Assembly: GCF_009914755.1 (NCBI RefSeq)
Contig: NC_060929.1
From: the human T2T-CHM13v2.0 reference genome, Homo sapiens
DNA: 64,000 bases
Direction: 5' to 3' (one strand)
Shown: piece after piece, positions 9,106 through 45,398 of the stretch
Position numbering within the stretch: position 1 is the first letter of the stretch
How the letters are laid out: every line of letters starts with the position of its first letter
Position numbers and translations under genes: made by a program
Notes under the pieces: model-generated
Told to the model about the DNA's origin: nothing
The model's database searches: none
What the model saw: only the letters and a program-made list of their open reading frames with translations

Positions 9106-12100
9106 CACCAAAGGACCGCTTGGTAGCCACTGGAACCCTTTCCAGAACTGCTGTTTGGTTCTTCTCCATCCTCAATTTTGCCACTTTCATGTGAATGTTA
9201 GTCAATTCGGTGGGCAATTTTTGGACATGAACCAGAAAGCTGAAAGCTGAGGCTGACACGGACTGTAGGTGCTTTTTGTTCAGGTGGATTCGAAGGAGTT
9301 AGAGATGTGATTTCCCATTGCTGTTAGTTTTAGAACTATACCCGTGAAGCATGACTTATTGTAAGATGTTGGCTGAAAGCATGAACTTGCAGAACTCCCT
9401 CGGAGACGCAGGTTGCAGTGGACATTGGGATTGTTGCTTGAAAAATTAAAATTTGAATATTTTCTCTCTCATTTGCATCATACAGCTCTACCTAGGATTG
9501 TACAGTTTACCATAAAATTTACTTCATGAAAGTGGGAATCACTGAACATGTAGAAGACAAGGAACATATTGTTAACTCCTGATTCTTAACTTTATTCAAC
9601 TGGACTCAGAATTGTAGGGATAATATGAATGCAGGAGGAAACATTCTGTCAGGCGGTATGACTGGACAGACTTTGAATATACTCTAAAAGTGGACAGAAA
9701 ATTTACGAAAATCTTAGATTTTGTTTAGAATGAGAAAATATACAATTAGAATTATTTTAGAAATAGTAGGAAGTATTGCAGAAGTCAATACACAAATGTG
9801 CCAGGCAGAGGTGGTTTTCTCTGTTTGACTCTCAACCAACTTCAGATCTATGACATTATTCTGATCACTGGCTCCATCATACATATTCACCACTTGAGAT
9901 TCATAACATATCAATAGTTATTTCATAAATATAGAAATGAAATAATTTTATTTTTGACAGACTGGATGGAATGAGTGTGTAATGATTGATAAAGGTTGTA
10001 AATTTTAAATGCAAGATGACGCTTACGTTCTGTAAACCATTAGTAATACATGCTGTAATATAGAATTAGTGGAACATTTTGATTAATCTTTCCCTAGAAG
10101 TGACTGAAATATTTTTGTGCATATTTGAGAAAGGGAACTTTCCTTTTATTAATTGTCAATTTAGAGAAACTATGCTTAAGCTGGTCTTTTGCATTGCTAA
10201 TGTGACATGTACCCAACTTTTCATTAATTTGTATTTCCATTTTTAAATTGCATATTCTATGTTTTGTAGTGTTTGGATTGTTAATGAAAAAATATTATAT
10301 GTTCGTTATTCCTTGTATTATTGCCACTTATCTTTTGCTTGATAAAAATGCGTTGTTCTTTTTTCTTTTGGAGGGACAAGATGAAAATATATAATTTGAA
10401 TTGATTAAAATTGGTCGTTACTAAAATAGTATAGTAACCACAAGTGATTGGCTTATAAATGAAGTAGAAATGCTTTTTAATATTCCAAAATAGAGTTCCT
10501 TTTGATCTGTTGGTGCTGAGCCTTGGTTAAACCAGGGAGAAGGGGAGCAGAAAGGAAACGTTGTTACTGATGAGTACCACAGACTCATCTTAAAAAAAAC
10601 TCTCATTATGGTGATCATAGAATTGACCATCCAAACTGGGACACTCTTGAGAGTAAATGGAGGGCATTATTAATAATTATCTTGTAATGAACTTAAATCT
10701 GGACTGTTCCAGGCAAACCAGACTTATCTTGCAATATGAGAATGCTGACACAATGCAGGAAAGCCAGTTTCCCTTTTGTTGATCTACTTGACCAAGCAAA
10801 GGGGCTGAAAAACTGAATAAGGAAACAACTTTATAAGAGAAACAGTGGTCTTCAATCTTTTAAAGACATGAAATCCTATATGGCATTCTGTCTCAGTGAG
10901 TCAGTTAACAAATACGTATGTGCAACCCTTCTGCTAGTAGTGCACATAAGTGATTATCCCTGCCAGGTATCGAGTTGGAATATCCAGTTATTTCATGTCA
11001 CACATCGGCACGTATGATGGTGGTTTGGTCAGATGGATAATACAGCAGACACACTTAGAACACTCACTGCACTGGTGGCTGTTCATTTTGAGGAACTCCA
11101 AAGTCAATTCAAGGAAATAAGGAATGACCTGGAACAGGCCTTAGAAACAATTGATTTATTCCAATAGTTAACCACTGGCTGGCTCCCAACTCTAGGTGAT
11201 AGGCATCTAATTGAGACATGTGTGAGTCAATAGCCATCGGGGTCCTTTTTGGTGAGAAGAAATAAGACATTTTCTCCCTTTTAAAGATCATCTCTTCAGA
11301 GCTGCATGGTAAATTTGAATTTCCCCATTGTTCTCTAGAGCTAGGTCAAAAAAACAACTGTTTCTTTTCTTATTCCACTATTAATAAATTGAAAGCTTGC
11401 TGTACAAAGGCAACAGCAACTTAAAAAAGAAAATCTGGACAATAGATGTGGACTCCAAGGGGCCACTGCCATCCCTTCCTGTGTGCTCTTTTTGACAAGT
11501 AAATCACTCCAGTTAGCTGATGTCCTGAAATGACATTTGTACCTGAGGCAATTCTTATTAGAGCTTACTCAGGACTTTTCAAACATCAGGACACACATAG
11601 CAATTTGGATGTTGTAAAACTACGTGTTACATTTGGAGAGGTCTTGTTGAGAAGGCAAAATTTTCTAAATATTTTGATATCAATTTGGGTAAAGAAAGGA
11701 ATACTTTTGTTAGAATGAGAATTAAAGAGAAAACAAAAGAATCTTGGCAAAATTTTCCCTCTGAAATTACAAACTTTAGGAACTTTTCCAGATGTATCGA
11801 ATTTAATTTGACATTGATGTCACTCTTCATACCAAGTGAATCTATTCTCATGAACTTTGAACCCATGTTAATTTTGGACCCTATAACTAATTTCCTTTCT
11901 GTATCCCATGGTGGTCAAAGCAGTAAAGGAGTTTAGAGATACTTAGCAAATGCCATTCATATAGTATTGTTAGCCAAACTATTATTCCTTCCTTAGAAGT
12001 TGATGTATCAGAAAATTTATAAGTTATTTGTATTTATATATAAGTACATCAGAACTTGCCCACATGATAACTCATGTTTGCTTTAATAAGGAAAATATGT

Positions 12101-14957: not shown

Positions 14958-16800
14958 GTTTTTATTTATTTTTATTTTTATTTTTACCTTTTAAGTTCAG
15001 GGGTACATATACAGGTTTGTTACATAGGAAAACATGTATCATGGAGTTTTTTGGTACAGATTATTTCGTCACCTAGTTATTAAGCCTAGTACCCATTAGT
15101 TATTTTTCCTGATGCTCTCCCTCCTCCCACCGATAAGCCCCATTGTGTGTTGTTCCCCTCAATGTGTCCATGTGTTCTCATCATTTAGCTCACACTTATA
15201 AGTGCGAACATGTGGTATCTGGTTTTCTGTTTCTGCCTTAGTTTGCTAAGGATAATGGCCTCCAGCTCCATCCATGTTCCTGAAAAGGACATGATTTTGT
15301 TCTTTTTTATGACTGCAGAGTATTCCGTGTGTACCACATTTTCCTTATCCAATCTGCAATGGATGGGCATTTAGGTTGATCCTATGTCTTTGCTATTGTG
15401 AATAGTGCTGCAAAGAACACGTGTGCATGTGTCTTTAATAATAGAACAATTTATACTCCTATGGGTATATACCCAGTAATGGGATTACTGGGTCAAATGG
15501 TATTTCTGTTTTTAGATCTTTGAGGAATTGTTACACTATCTTCCACAATGGTTGAACTAATTTACACTCCCATCAACAGTGTATAAATGATCCTTTTTTT
15601 CTGCAACCTTGCCAGGATCTGTTATTTTTTGACATTTTAGTAACAGCCATTCTGACTGATGTAAGATAGTATCTCATTGTGGTTTTGATTTGTATTTCTC
15701 TAATGATCAGTGATGTTGAGCTTTTTTTCACATGCTTGTTGGCTGTATATATGTCTTCTTTTGAAAAGTGTCTGTTTATGTTCTTTGCCCACTTTTTAAT
15801 GGTTTTTTTCTTGTAAGTTTGTTTAAGTTCCTTAAAGATGCTGGATATTAGACATTTGTCATATGCACAGTTTGCAAAAATTTTCCCTCATTCTGTTGTC
15901 TTTTCACTGTGTTGATAGTTTCCTTTATTGTGCAGAAGCTCTTCAGTTTAATTAGATCCCGTTTGTCAATTTTTGCTTTTGTTGCAATTGCTTTTGGCAT
16001 CCTCGTCATGAAATCTTTGCCTGTTGCTATGTCCAGGATGGTATTGCCCAGGTTGTCTTCCAGGGTTTTTATAGTTTTGGGTTTTACATTTAAGTCTTCA
16101 ATCCATCTTGAGTTGATTTTTTAATATGGTGTAAGGAAGGGGTCCAGTTCCAGTCTTCTGCATATGGCTAGCCAGTTATCCCAGCAGCATTTATTAAATA
16201 GGGAATCTCTCCCCCATTGCTTCTTTTTGTCAGACCTGTAGAAGATCAGATAGATGTAGGTGTGTGGCCTTATTTCTGGGTTCTCTATTCTGCTCCATTG
16301 GTCTATGTGTCTGTTTTTGTGCCAGTACCGTGCTGTTTTGGTTACTGTAGCCCTGTAGTACAGTTAGAAGTCAGGTAGTGTGATGCCTCCAGCTTTGTTC
16401 TTTCTGCTTAGGAATGCCTTAGATATTTGGGCCCTTTTTTGGCTCCATATGAATTTTTAAAAAGGTTTTTCTACTGCTGTGAAGAATGTCAATGGTAGTT
16501 TAATAGGAATAGCATTGAATCTATAAGTTGCTTTGTGTAGTATGACCATTTTCATGATATTGATTCTTCCTATCCATTAGCATAGAACTTTTTTTATTTG
16601 TTTGTGTCACCTGTGATTTCTTTGAGCAGTGTTCTGTAATTCTCCTTGAAGAGATTTTCACCTCCTACTTAGCTGTATTCCTCAGTATTTTATTCTTTTT
16701 GTGGCAATTGTGAATGGGATTGGGTTTCTGATTTGGCTCTCAGCTTGACTGTTGTTTGTGTATAGGAATGTTAGTGATTTTTGCACACGAATTTTGTATG
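14958..16800 (-). mobile_element. L1PA (about PA13-type) 3' 1.8 kb, inserted in an older + strand L1M
   Basis: Poly-T start, ...TACAGATTATTTCGTCACC...CCCATTAGTTATTTTTCCTGA 3' UTR, then antisense ORF2 C-terminal sequence (ORF 15185..15370). Confidence 0.9.
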
Positions 16801-28125: not shown

Positions 28126-29152
28126 TAAAGTAGAACTTCTATGTTTAATGACTTTTATGGCTTCCTAAAATTATGGACATGAAATTGCCTTGCAGAATAA
28201 ATGCTGGATTCACTCTTTCTTCTTGAATATGCCAAAGGTTCTTGCTCCTTAGTTCAACACTAGAATTAAAAGGACCCATTTTGTATTACTGGGAATTTGT
28301 AATGATTAACATTTCAACTGTTCCTTTTCTTTTAATAATAGAAGAAATTTGCATATTGAAAAGTTTAATTTTTATTATTTTATGTAACTTGTGTAAATAT
28401 AAATATATTTATAATATATAAATATATAAATATATTATATATATATGGTGCCATATGACATATTGTATGTAAAAAAATTATCCTTACCCTGTGGGAGCTT
28501 CCAGTCTAAAGTGAATTATCTTCCTTTCATACAGCAGCCATTTTTCGTAGGGTATGATGGCAAAGCCAAGAGAAAAATGTTAATGTTCTCCATCTCTTCT
28601 CGGTACCTGCTGGTCTCAGACTACAATAAAAGTTCTAAAATATTAAAAAGCAAAATATGCAGCCTAAGAATAAGGTTCACAATATTTATTAAAATTGTCA
28701 TTAAAATAAATGTAAGTAAATGTTCTTATACTGCTTAAGTCAGACTGCTGCTTTATTTTCTTGAAAGAGTCTAAAATGCATACAAACTGCATGATTCTAT
28801 ACTTTTTTTTCTTGTTTTTCTCATCCAACATATATGAAATAATGGCTGAATCCTTTTATGTCAAGACACTGCTGGGCAATAAATCACTTCTATTTTAAGC
28901 AATGTGATTTCATTTATCTCTGATCAAGGCATCAAAACAGTTGCTTAAATTAGTAAGACAAACCCAAGAGAAACAAGGGTTGGATACCTCTGTTAACCTT
29001 TTATTTCTTTGCAATTATTTTCAGATACCTTGTTCAATGGTCTTATTACTTTTCAATACATGGCATCATCTTTGCTTCTGCTATCAAAGAATGTGCTGCA
29101 CAGATTTAGAATCACATGTAATCTATACTGCGTTTTTAAAAAATGTATTTCC

Positions 29153-29771
29153 GCAATAAACATACGTGTGCATGTGTCTTTATAGCAGCATGATTTATAG
29201 TCCTTTGGGTATATACCCAGTAATGGGATGGCTGGGTCAAATGGTATTTCTAGTTCTAGATCCCTGAGGAATCGCCACACTGACTTCCACAATGGTTGAA
29301 CTAGTTTGCAAAGACTTGGAACCAACCCAAATGTCCAACAATGATAGACTGGATTAAGAAAATGTGGCACATATACACCATGGAATACTATGCAGCCATA
29401 AAAAATGATGAGTTCATATCCTTTGTAGGGACATGGATGAAATTGGAAATCATCATTCTCAGTAAACTATCGCAAGAACAAAAAACCAAACACCGTATAT
29501 TCTCACTCATAGATGGGAATTGAACAATGAGATCACCTGGACACGTGAAGGGGAATACCACACTCTGGGGACTGTGGTGGGGAGGGGGGAGTGGGGAGGG
29601 ATAGCATTGGGAGATATACCTAAGGCTAGATGACGAGTTAGTGGGTGCAGCGCACCAGCATGGCACATGTATACATATGTAACTAACCTGCACAATGTGC
29701 ACATGTACCCTAAAACTTAAAGTATAAAAAAAAAAAAAAAGGAAATATCTTCCCATAAAAACTAAAAAAAA
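29153..29771 (+). mobile_element. L1PA2-type insertion with 5' inversion (twin priming) and short 3' transduction
   Basis: Antisense L1 at 29153-29307 and sense L1 at 29308-29725; GATGAC-GAG-TTAGT diagnostic (not ACA/ACG); two A-tracts; 15-bp TSD AAAAAATGTATTTCC at 29138-29152 and 29772-29786. Confidence 0.95.
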
Positions 29772-30903
29772 AAAAAATGTATTTCCATGGCTTAAATTAA
29801 AACAGAGTATGGTCATTTATCACTTTTGAAAGCAAAAGATTCGTTCACAATCCTTCAGTGCATCAATCAGATGGGGCTAGGCTTTTTTTTAGTTAGTCCA
29901 CAGCTAAAAGCTTACATTAGAATGTAATTCATTATCATGTCCACACAGATATAATGCCCCAAGGATTTGCTATTTGTTTTTCCTTAGTATCATGAAATTT
30001 TTGTGAAACAGCAATATGAAATGCAGAAAGTCCAGTCTCATGATAACTTGGCACTTTCCATTGCAGGGCTTTGAATTCTCCTACATCAAAGCTTCATTCA
30101 GAAACCAAAAGGGTTATGCAAAAAGTGGAATTCTACCTCAATACAAACTCAGGAAGAACTAGACATCCTTCAAGGCTGGAATGAAAAACCTAAGCTCCTG
30201 CCATAGATTTATGTCCAATCAGAGGAGAAACAGTACAGATTAATAACAATTTGCAAAGGAATCCCATGAACATTTGGTGAGTGCTCTCTGACCCAGCAGA
30301 GATCCATCTGTGGGATGTCCAGGTTAGAGAATACCCAGAGAGGCAAACAGCAGTTTGACTTGAGCCTTAGCCCTCATACCAAGAGCACAGTTTGATTTTG
30401 GCTTGGCTATAAGCATGTATGCCTAAAGTGGAATGCATTGTATAGAAATGCTTGAATTTGAATCATTTCTTAGATGTCTGGCATTGTGATCTTTACAAAC
30501 TTTTAATAAATGGCAATCAACCCAAAAGGTTCGAATACTTACTTTTTTAGCAGCAAAGGTCAAAATTTGGATGTGCAAATTTTGGTCTTATTGTATGTCA
30601 TTGGGAATGTAAAAGCTAACATTTATCTTTAAACCTACTAAACTATTCTGATCATCAGGGAAATAACCCAGTAGGCTTCAATGGAGGTTCTCTAAAAGGG
30701 TCTCAGGGATATTCGTTTTATGGACTTGACAAAAATTTTAATTAAACTCTCAAGAAGGCAATTACAGGGTCAAGAAAGGACATGGAACCTTAGGTCATTG
30801 AGAGAGAGGTAACAGCTTCCAAAAGCTTATATAAAAGTGATTCTGTATCCCCATAGCATTATGATTGATGATGCTTCATAGGACTCATGATTTAGAGCAC
30901 ATA

Positions 30904-42841: not shown

Positions 42842-45398
42842 ATAGCATAGATATAGGAATAGATATGGATAAGAATGTGGCTATATTTGTTTGTATCCTT
42901 ATACATGGTATATTGAACTATCAAGCTTGTTGCAAAGTGCAAGGAGAAACTAACTAATCTTTCAACTTCTAAAGACTTTGCTCCTGAATGAAATATTGAC
43001 AAGTTTTATAGCTCTTCTAATCATTTTCATGTGATAAAATACAGCATAGTCAAATATAAACCCTACATTCTCATCCAATTTTAGATGATTCTCCTTCCCC
43101 AGCTCAGCTCACATGGGTTCAAAAACTTACAACGAGAAAGCAGGACGTGGTTGGCTTCTTTCCTCTTTCTTCGTACACCCCCTTCTCACTTGCTGGATGT
43201 GCTTTTGGTCAATGGGAAGAGAAGGAAGGATATAAAAGGGGCATTAAGGAGAAAACAATTTTTCAAGGCTCACAGGGTCACAATCTGGTATGAAGCTTTG
43301 CTTTGTATTCCACACGCAGTGCTCTTTCTTTTAAAGGCAGTTTTGTAAAAAACTGTGAAAGATCCCGCAGTATTGCTCATGCATACAGCTTACAAACCCT
43401 AAGCTTAGCTACTAGATTCTAGCAGCTCACCCTACTGTTGTGGCTACCTATTCTTCTAAGTAATACTTTTAGGTAGTATGTCCCTCCCAAGTAGCCATAA
43501 AATCTTGAGAGAAATGTACATTCACTTTTGCCCTAACAGACTATGAAAGTGCAGTCCATTTCTAAGCAGATCACTTTGGCTCTAACTTTTAGAATATATT
43601 TACTCATGAACCCCATACCAATTACTGTGTCCTCAAATTCTAGGGAGCATCTGTCTTGCTCTTTGATTGTTTCTGTCAATATATGTCCCTGGCTGGGATT
43701 AAAATGAGAGTAGCATTAGCGCCACATCTAGATGGAGACGAGAAACATCATGATTCTCCAATTTTCTCTTTAAAGAAATACTGTACTTCTTTTCTTCATC
43801 TTTATCATCCCATAACCAATTCTCTAGCCTGGTTTCATACAGCATTTGAAGCGAAGGATGATTTAAGTTTTGTAAACCCAGTCTCACATTATCTTAGAAT
43901 GCCCAGCAAACATGCACATTGAGAAGCTGAGACTTTAGCTGAAACATCAAGATAACAAAAAAGTCACAGCTAAAATCTTCTCTTTCTCTTACACATGCGC
44001 ACACACACACACACACACACCTACCTGCACCCAAAATTTGAGCCTTAAAAAAAAACCAAACATAATGTAGACCCATTCTTGTATCTCAATGTAACAAAAT
44101 TAGAAATCAAAAAATAAAGATAAAATCCTCATACAATTGGAAAGTTTAAAACACAGTTTTAAATAAGTCATAAATCAAAGAAGATAATGGAAATTAAAAA
44201 ATAATTAGAACAGAATTACCAAAAAATCCCTGTGGATCAAAATTTGTATACCTAAAATTTAATTTAAACTAAAATATAATTACATGGGGAAAATTGCCTA
44301 TATAGAGTAAGGATTTAACCTTTACTAAATGCCAGTAAGATGTTGCTTATAGATTTTGTTGTATTAGATCATGTATATTCTTTGTGTCTTTTTAGAAAGC
44401 AATTCATTCCTTTTAAAAAATTTTAATTTATGAGAATCTCTAAAGTAATTTCTTATTCTTCACATGGTTATAATGAAAACGGACTGTTCTCTAAATACTG
44501 CGATACTTCAATGACATGTTTATATTATTTAAGTAATTCGTTAAAAGCAATTTATTCTCTTTTTATTCTCAGGTAGACACATTAGGGTAAATCTCCTGCA
44601 TTTCAATTGATCTTTAAAAAAAATGAGGAAAATTCAGGGCCTTAAGAATAAAGTGCTAGCAATGACAATCAAGTGCTGAAAGCAGAGAAAGAAAAATATA
44701 TGTATATATATATTATTTTAAAAGCTTTGAGCTCCCTCTAATGGCCTTTGGTAAAATTCCCAGAAGCAATAAGACAACTTTACTTAAGTAATAAATCTCC
44801 AATAAAGATGTTTTAAGAACATCTTCAAAATGTTCAGATTGCTGTTTTACTTTAAGTAGAGCATTCATTGTGGGGAAAAACTGAGCATATCCAAATGTTG
44901 CTGTGGGAATGTCCTTTCCTGTCTACCTGTTATCCTGTTACTGATGAGAGACACATTTTCTCTCCCCCTAGTGGATGTTTACAAAAATGACACAAAGATA
45001 TTACCAAACTAAGAGATTAAATTATTGCAATCAGAGAATTTAGATAGCACTAGCTGAGGCTCTTGACATGATTCAGCCTAACCTGTCATTTTGTGCTAGA
45101 GGAAATACAACAAATTTATGACTGTGTCATGGTCCAGGGGCACAGGCTCACTAAAATACTGAAGCAAATTTTAGGACTATGAACAATTTCCTTCACTCTA
45201 CGCCTTACTTCTCCTTAATAGGGTTCCTGTACAACAACAGGAATTACAGTGGAAAGAACTGCAAACCTCAGGAATGATTTAAGAAGTGTCCAGGGAAATC
45301 CAAAGACAACAGAGGAGACGAAAACAGGGACACCAGAGGAAACTTTAGCCTCTGACAGAGCTACTGCAAAGAGGAAACACAGTCGAACTCCCAGTCAT

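What the first reader, a model, noticed from the sequence alone, without database searches (positions are those of the whole stretch)
29726..29786. L1PA2 carries a 3' transduction that matches alpha-satellite: footprint of a centromeric source element
Seen: inside the 15-bp TSDs, the L1 3' end is followed by A15, then GGAAATATCTTCCCATAAAAACT (29741-29763), then a second A-tract. This is the layout of a 3' transduction. Established knowledge (recalled consensus): alpha-satellite A-type monomers read ...GGTGGAAAAGGAAATATCTTCACATAAAAACTAGACAGAAG. The tag matches 22/23, or 27/28 counting adjoining As. Inference: the parent L1 sat inside alpha-satellite, was transcribed in the germline or early embryo, read into the satellite and exported a piece to a chromosome arm. 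The tag would be a barcode for a retrotransposition-competent (peri)centromeric L1 and its progeny.
Basis: partly seen in the sequence, partly recalled or inferred. Interest (0 to 1): 0.85.

Follow-up and report, generated by a model that had tools for sequence, protein, structure and literature searches.

The report
L1 insertion carrying an alpha-satellite tag
A short, partly inverted L1 retrotransposon copy between MEGF10 and PRRC1 carries a 23-base piece of alpha-satellite DNA behind its tail, most likely picked up from a parent L1 that sat inside satellite DNA near a centromere; it is a tidy but fairly ordinary example of a known process.

Summary
A 15-bp target-site duplication (29138-29152 and 29772-29786) brackets an L1 3' piece, A15, the 23-mer at 29741-29763 and A14.

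The 23-mer is alpha-satellite. It occurs exactly at 16,011 places in the assembly, the window included, and at 43,667 with up to 1 mismatch. The reversed control gave 0. The three arrays tested have a 170-171 bp period.

The tag starts right after the monomer's A-run. Five other L1s in satellite arrays have their poly(A) at that same spot and orientation. This fits a short 3' transduction from an L1 lodged in alpha-satellite.

- No source copy and no sibling was found in this genome.
- With about 16,000 identical copies, the tag is not a barcode.
- The parent more likely sat in divergent pericentromeric satellite than in an active centromere.

A second L1, on C18 at 68.45 Mb, carries a different alpha-satellite tag.

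Verdict: real, explained, a new member of a known kind, of modest interest.

The parts
29138..29152 (+). 5' copy of the target-site duplication, AAAAAATGTATTTCC
   Evidence: Perfect 15-nt direct repeat with 29772-29786 (D3).
29153..29307 (-). Inverted (antisense) L1 segment, 155 nt: the twin-priming 5' inversion
   Evidence: Aligns in opposite orientation to L1 copies, e.g. L055 1232->1078, at 98-100% identity to 15 full-length-aligned loci. It maps just upstream of the sense segment, with 16 nt of L1 missing between them.
29308..29725 (+). Sense L1 3' segment (end of ORF2 plus 3' UTR), 418 nt, with GAG at 29635-29637
   Evidence: Aligns co-linearly to L1 copies, e.g. L055 1249->1666. It is 96.3-98.8% identical to the 19 stored GAG-type loci and 95.7% to the ACG-type L037. 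GAG is read as L1PA2 or older per passages of PMC7026601.
29726..29740 (+). First A-tract (A15): inferred copy of the parent element's genomic poly(A) tail, plus the monomer's own A-run
   Evidence: In arrays the monomer reads GGTGGAAAAGG or GGTAAAAAAGG before the tag.
29741..29763 (+). 23-nt alpha-satellite tag (the transduced flank); the next A at 29764 could also be templated
   Evidence: Exact at 16,011 places in the assembly, and 43,667 with up to 1 mismatch; reversed control 0. Host arrays have a 170-171 bp period.
29764..29777 (+). Second A-tract (A14): poly(A) tail of the retrotransposed RNA; its last 6 A overlap the TSD
   Evidence: It is not templated by alpha-satellite, which continues AGACAGAAG.
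29772..29786 (+). 3' copy of the target-site duplication
   Evidence: D3.

Best explanation
This is one L1 retrotransposition event. Its template RNA came from a GAG-type (L1PA2 or older) L1 that had itself integrated into an alpha-satellite monomer at the A-run before GGAAATATC. Transcription ran past the parent's own tail, 23-24 nt into the satellite, and the RNA was cleaved and polyadenylated there. This is a short 3' transduction. Target-primed reverse transcription at AAAAAATGTATTTCC on chromosome 5 then copied poly(A), tag, parental A-tract and L1 3' end. A second priming event (twin priming) produced the inverted 155-nt 5' segment. Shown here: the layout, the single TSD pair, the satellite identity of the tag, repeated L1 integration at that monomer site, and the inversion. 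Inferred: read-through from a parent copy, which was not found, the polyadenylation site, and a pericentromeric rather than active-centromere home. The insert lies between genes and has no evident function.
For: One perfect 15-nt TSD pair encloses L1 + A15 + tag + A14. The tag is identical to about 16,010 other sites, reversed control 0. Sampled host loci are 170-171 bp tandem arrays whose TRF unit reads ...GGTGGAAAAGGAAATATCTTCACATAAAAACTAGACAG.... Five other L1s have poly(A) directly abutting GGAAATATCTTC in the same orientation inside satellite arrays: L031, L035, L036, L037 and L094. L036 shows the TSD AAAAAGGAAATATC on both sides. The tag's start is thus exactly where a parent's 3' flank would begin. 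The second A-tract is not templated by the satellite, so the RNA was polyadenylated. Twin-priming geometry with a 16-nt loss and 2-3 nt microhomologies marks a genuine endonuclease-dependent L1 event. Passages of PMC13009371 report that 71% (248/349) of L1 transductions seen by nanopore are under 100 bp and are often flanked by poly(A) on both sides. Passages of PMC8219666 report full-length L1s within alpha-satellite.
Against: No source was found in the assembly. L1 end + 3-33 nt + GGAAATATCTTC gave only the window and L031. L031 is 89% identical to the window's L1 over 418 nt, has a different tail, and has A instead of C in its flank. The 30-60 nt gap version gave 0. A different L1 anchor with the C-variant tag gave only the window. 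A10+tag with up to 2 mismatches gave 4 places, none fitting. A6+tag gave 20 exact places, and the 19 others are plain monomers. The other roughly 10,400 one-mismatch hits were not inspected. A10 + 12-mer gave 4 places, none fitting. No sibling was found. There is no AATAAA or ATTAAA in the 10-30 nt before the second A-tract. Only TATAAA (29723-29728), which ends 35 nt before the tag's end, and CATAAA (29754-29759), which ends 4 nt before it, are present (read).
Confidence: 0.8

Rival explanations
1. Template switching during reverse transcription. ORF2p began on a polyadenylated alpha-satellite transcript, copied about 23 nt, then jumped at the A-run onto the poly(A) tail of an L1 RNA. This would give a chimeric retrocopy with no L1 parent in satellite DNA.
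For: It would produce the same linear layout. A-runs on both sides of the tag would favour switching by microhomology. No parent copy was found.
Against: It needs an independently polyadenylated satellite RNA ending exactly at ...AAAAACT(A), plus a switch. Read-through from a parent needs neither. Five L1s in arrays show that the L1-poly(A)-GGAAATATC junction exists as genomic DNA. From recall, not checked here: known L1 chimeras carry the L1 or mRNA part at the 3' side, not the 5' side.
Confidence: 0.08
2. Two separate events: a pre-existing tag + poly(A) at the site, for example an orphan transduction, followed by an L1 landing next to it.
For: Orphan transductions exist (passages of PMC10415145).
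Against: Only one TSD pair is present and it encloses everything. Nothing flanking L1 + A15 alone is duplicated, since GGAAATATC does not repeat the left flank.
Confidence: 0.03
3. Chance resemblance of A-rich tail debris to alpha-satellite.
For: The tag is short and A/T-rich.
Against: It matches 23/23 at about 16,010 other sites, against 0 for the reversed pattern. Shuffles of the window gave 0 matches with up to 3 mismatches.
Confidence: 0.01

Closest known systems
L1 3' transduction, short class (Moran 1999 and Szak 2003 as cited in PMC13009371; catalogue for this assembly in the Hoyt et al. preprint 10.1101/2021.07.12.451456)
   Same: L1 3' end, internal A-tract, non-L1 flank, terminal poly(A), all inside one TSD. 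The length is under 100 bp, as for most events in PMC13009371.
   Different: The flank is satellite DNA present in about 16,000 identical copies, so it cannot name its source. No source was found. There is no canonical poly(A) signal in the usual window.
Full-length L1s embedded in centromeric alpha-satellite ('ghost' L1s, PMC8219666; L1s in monomeric layers, Altemose et al. preprint)
   Same: The inferred parent belongs to this population. Five L1s at the same monomer site were seen here, two of them of the ACG and ACA types.
   Different: Those papers describe resident copies. In the passages read, their activity as sources is called unexplored. This locus is putative progeny on a chromosome arm.
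Twin-priming 5' inversion of L1 (named in passages of PMC13009371 and PMC8219666)
   Same: An inverted 5' segment contiguous in L1 coordinates with the sense 3' segment, a small (16-nt) loss at the junction, microhomologies and an intact TSD.
   Different: Nothing unusual.
Satellite carried by a retroelement: WaluSat transduced by AluSx3 (Hoyt et al. preprint)
   Same: A satellite unit moved by 3' transduction.
   Different: There the carrier was an Alu and the piece later expanded into arrays. Here the carrier is an L1, the piece is a 23-nt fragment of a monomer, and there is no expansion.

Membership tests
L1 3' transduction | L1 3' end, then non-L1 sequence, then a terminal poly(A), with an internal A-tract from the parent tail | tested here: met
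   L1 end at 29725, A15, 23-nt tag, A14.
L1 3' transduction | A single target-site duplication encloses L1 plus the extra sequence | tested here: met
   D3: 15/15 nt at 29138-29152 and 29772-29786.
L1 3' transduction | The extra sequence maps to the 3' flank of a source L1 elsewhere | tested here: inconclusive
   The tag maps to satellite monomers at a site where 5 other L1s sit, but none fits as parent. Searches and 46/47 found no matching copy in this one assembly.
L1 3' transduction | A polyadenylation signal 10-30 nt upstream of the terminal poly(A) | tested here: inconclusive
   Read: no AATAAA or ATTAAA. The variants TATAAA and CATAAA end 35 nt and 4 nt before the tag's end. That these hexamers count as variants is recalled.
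Alpha-satellite | Member of tandem arrays of about 171 bp with the family's monomer sequence | tested here: met
   The tag is exact in 16,011 places. 3 of 3 host loci tested by TRF have period 170-171. The flanks of the 19 other A6+tag loci read as monomers. The name 'alpha-satellite' for this 171-bp unit rests on established knowledge and the papers read.
Twin-primed (5'-inverted) L1 | 5' segment inverted, adjacent in L1 coordinates to the sense segment, with a small deletion or duplication at the junction, inside the TSD | tested here: met
   29153-29307 is antisense and 29308-29725 is sense, with 16 nt missing between them.
L1PA2 subfamily | Subfamily-diagnostic positions | tested here: inconclusive
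   GAG at 29635-29637 indicates 'L1PA2 or older' (PMC7026601 passages). No repeat library was available to separate PA2 from PA3 or older.

The most novel reading that the evidence does not exclude
L1s embedded in pericentromeric alpha-satellite were a recurrent class of germline-active source elements in the hominoid lineage. Short satellite tags mark their progeny on chromosome arms. Two tags from two different monomer sites were seen here: this locus, and C18 at 68.445 Mb. The parents have since been lost or rearranged by satellite turnover, which would explain why no source is found in this assembly.
Probability: 0.4. Interest if true: 0.5.

Novelty: new member of a known kind. Interest (0 to 1): 0.3.

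Why it matters
L1s resident in centromeric satellite have been described, and one paper calls them an unexplored source of active elements (PMC8219666 passages). A fixed arm insertion with a satellite tag is indirect evidence that such an element was once transcribed and retrotransposed in the germline. The second example found here suggests a census is feasible. Such short satellite tags are easily missed, or masked as satellite or poly(A). The practical limit is that satellite tags are too repetitive to identify a parent on their own. The locus itself is intergenic and shows no sign of function.

Tried and rejected
Source hunt in the window's own assembly, all negative:
- found only the window and L031, an older L1, rejected as parent.
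- a different L1 anchor found only the window.
- a longer tail gave 0 hits.
- A10+tag with up to 2 mismatches gave L035, L036 and L037, all rejected. L035 carries its own extra tag. L036 is old and 5'-truncated. L037 is ACG-type with a long complex tail.
- the 19 other exact A6+tag sites are plain monomers.
- L094 is an ACA-type L1 whose flank diverges after 13 nt, and L093 is a plain monomer.

Sibling hunt: one search found only the window.

Source hunt for the second tagged L1 (C18): 11 other exact sites inspected are plain monomers. L095 on C1 is an L1 at that monomer site, but its flank is a different variant.

A DNA search with the L1 end + tag scored only 40 of 434 candidates, so it is not a census.

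Literature: word searches found no paper stating that an L1 3' transduction carried alpha-satellite. Term matching for "3' transduction" is poor in this tool, and subscription journals are not covered. Supplementary tables of the Hoyt et al. preprint, which may list this locus, could not be opened.

Full report
OBSERVATION. An L1 3' end runs to ...CTTAAAGTAT at 29725. It is followed by A15 (29726-29740), GGAAATATCTTCCCATAAAAACT (29741-29763) and A14 (29764-29777). The perfect 15-nt direct repeat AAAAAATGTATTTCC lies at 29138-29152 and 29772-29786 (family D3). One target-site duplication therefore encloses L1, first A-tract, tag and second A-tract. The 23-mer occurs once in the window, and 100 shuffles gave no match with up to 3 mismatches.

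THE TAG IS ALPHA-SATELLITE. The window's own assembly (24 contigs, 3.117 Gb; the hub names it T2T-CHM13) can be searched.
- The exact 23-mer occurs at 16,011 places (10,980 + 5,031, window included). With up to 1 mismatch it occurs at 43,667 places. The reversed control pattern gave 0 both times.
- The first 100 exact places lie on C1 (126.7 Mb), C2 (92-95 Mb and 132.66 Mb), C3 (90-96 Mb) and C4 (49.7 Mb). On C4 the spacings are 1191-1192 and 2041 bp.
- Three of three host loci tested are tandem arrays with a 170-171 bp period. The TRF unit of L018 reads ...GGTGGAAAAGGAAATATCTTCACATAAAAACTAGACAGAAGCATTCTCAG....
- The match is therefore 23/23 to thousands of monomers with the C variant, not just 22/23 to a consensus.
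- That these coordinates are pericentromeric, and that 132.66 Mb on C2 is the relic of an ancestral centromere, is my recollection and was not tested.

THE TAG STARTS AT A RECURRENT L1 INTEGRATION SITE. Five other L1s have their poly(A) directly abutting GGAAATATCTTC in the same orientation, all inside satellite arrays:
- L031, C5 50.985 Mb.
- L035, C3 90.355 Mb.
- L036, C5 46.65 Mb. It shows AAAAAGGAAATATC duplicated on both sides, a direct TSD at this monomer site.
- L037, C23 57.77 Mb.
- L094, C19 24.70 Mb.
A parent L1 at this site would have exactly A(n)-GGAAATATCTTC... as its 3' flank. The second A-tract is not templated by the satellite, which continues AGACAGAAG. The RNA template was therefore polyadenylated after ...AAAAACT, or after the next A.

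THE L1 ITSELF. BLAST against 23 stored L1 loci shows two segments. Window 29308-29725 is sense L1 (for example L055 1249->1666). Window 29153-29307 is the immediately upstream L1 segment in inverted orientation (L055 1232->1078). Sixteen nt of L1 are missing between them, with 2-3 nt of overlap at the junctions.

The diagnostic trinucleotide at 29635-29637 is GAG. Passages of PMC7026601 give ACG as pre-Ta L1Hs and GAG as L1PA2 or older. That the trinucleotide sits directly after GATGAC is my recollection; it agrees with ACG in L037 and ACA in L094. The 418-nt sense segment is 96.3-98.8% identical to the 19 stored GAG-type copies. These were the best-scoring hits, where only 40 of 434 candidates were scored. 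It is 95.7% identical to the ACG-type L037. The label L1PA2 is plausible but untested, because no repeat library was available.

SOURCE AND SIBLINGS: NOT FOUND.
- L1 end + 3-33 nt + GGAAATATCTTC gave 2 places, the window and L031. L031's L1 is only 89% identical over 418 nt, has a different tail, and has A rather than C in the flank.
- The same pattern with a 30-60 nt gap gave 0.
- Another L1 anchor plus the C-variant tag gave the window only.
- A10 + tag with up to 2 mismatches gave 4 places. L035 carries its own extra 3' tag, L036 is old and truncated, and L037 is ACG-type with a long complex tail.
- A6 + tag gave 20 exact places, and the 19 others are plain monomers reading GGTAAAAAAGG. The remaining roughly 10,400 one-mismatch hits were not inspected.
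- A10 + 12-mer gave 4 exact places. L094 is ACA-type and its flank diverges after 13 nt. L093 is a plain monomer.
- Tag + A10 with up to 2 mismatches, the sibling search, gave the window only.
The parent is therefore absent from this one genome in recognisable form. With about 16,000 identical copies, the tag cannot serve as a barcode.

MECHANISM. The best reading (0.8) is a short 3' transduction. A GAG-type L1 lodged in alpha-satellite was transcribed 23-24 nt past its tail. The RNA was polyadenylated and inserted on chromosome 5 by target-primed reverse transcription with twin priming.

One weak point is that no AATAAA or ATTAAA lies 10-30 nt upstream of the second A-tract. Only TATAAA (29723-29728) and CATAAA (29754-29759) are present, ending 35 and 4 nt before the tag's end (read).

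Short transductions flanked by poly(A) on both sides are the common case. In passages of PMC13009371, 248 of 349 were under 100 bp. The same paper describes truncated reference copies that carry tags of absent sources.

The parent's home was more likely divergent or monomeric pericentromeric satellite than an active array. Passages of the Altemose et al. preprint state that TEs are virtually absent from HOR arrays, that L1s found there are always L1Hs, and that L1s are common in monomeric alpha-satellite.

Rivals:
- Template switching from a polyadenylated satellite RNA (0.08) gives the same layout but needs more steps.
- Two separate events (0.03) conflict with the single TSD pair.
- Chance (0.01) is excluded.

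WHAT IS KNOWN.
- L1 3' transduction is textbook.
- The Hoyt et al. preprint catalogued 183 highest-confidence L1 3' transductions in this assembly and describes a satellite unit (WaluSat) moved by an Alu (passages). Its supplementary tables could not be opened and may list this locus.
- PMC8219666 reports full-length L1s in alpha-satellite and calls centromeres an unexplored source of active L1s (passages).
- A 2026 preprint notes germline L1 insertions across most alpha-satellite HORs (passages).
- Word searches found no paper stating that an L1 transduction carried alpha-satellite. These searches are crude and do not cover subscription journals.

SECOND EXAMPLE. Among the loci fetched, L041 (C18 68.4457 Mb, minus strand) is a GAG-type L1 that ends in an A-rich tail, then AAAAACTTGACAGAATCATTCTCAG, then A15. 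That 25-mer is exact at 14 places and occurs at 12,084 with up to 1 mismatch, reversed control 0. The 11 other exact sites inspected are alpha monomers without an L1 upstream. Its tag starts at the next A-run of the monomer, so it came from a different parent. No source was found for it either; L095 on C1 is an L1 at that site but has a different flank variant. The query contained the window's tag, so this gives no frequency.

VERDICT. This is a clean, ordinary product of known L1 biology with an uncommon cargo. It is a new member of a known kind, with interest 0.3.

Noticed in passing
L041 / L087 / L096 (G000:C18:68445715-68445777, minus strand): A second GAG-type L1 on a chromosome arm carries a different alpha-satellite-derived 3' tag (25 nt) followed by A15. 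The tag is exact in 13 other satellite sites and occurs at 12,084 places with up to 1 mismatch. No source was found.
   Followed up: partly
L042 (G000:C13:59.207 Mb) and L045 (G000:C6:69.656 Mb): Two GAG-type L1 copies share the same tail, A-run G A-run GACCAAACC A-run. They look like siblings from one source with a 9-nt transduction.
   Followed up: no
L035 (G000:C3:90.355 Mb, minus strand): An L1 resident in alpha-satellite carries about 25 nt of non-L1, non-satellite sequence between two A-tracts. A transduction-bearing copy thus landed in the satellite.
   Followed up: no
L094 (G000:C19:24.696 Mb) and L037 (G000:C23:57.770 Mb): An ACA-type and an ACG-type L1 (young human-specific types, per the PMC7026601 passages) sit in alpha-satellite at the same monomer site. 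L037 has a tail region of more than 150 nt, A-rich and including a non-A stretch.
   Followed up: partly
window 29741-29747 versus 29780-29786 / 29146-29152: The first 7 nt of the tag (GGAAATA) are the reverse complement of the last 7 nt of the TSD (TATTTCC). My rough estimate of chance is 1-2%. There is no mechanism, and it is probably coincidence.
   Followed up: no
L018 300-600 (G000:C2:132.658 Mb): A retroelement 3' end (SVA-like, by recollection) with A37 abuts an alpha-satellite array at another A-run of the monomer.
   Followed up: no
L025 1-950 (G000:C4:49.704 Mb): An AT-rich tandem repeat with a 42-bp period lies directly beside the alpha-satellite array.
   Followed up: no
L040, L053 (G000:C5:21.765 Mb; G000:C8:127.910 Mb): These L1 copies also align to the window's L1 in two orientations, so they are probably further 5'-inverted insertions.
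   Followed up: no
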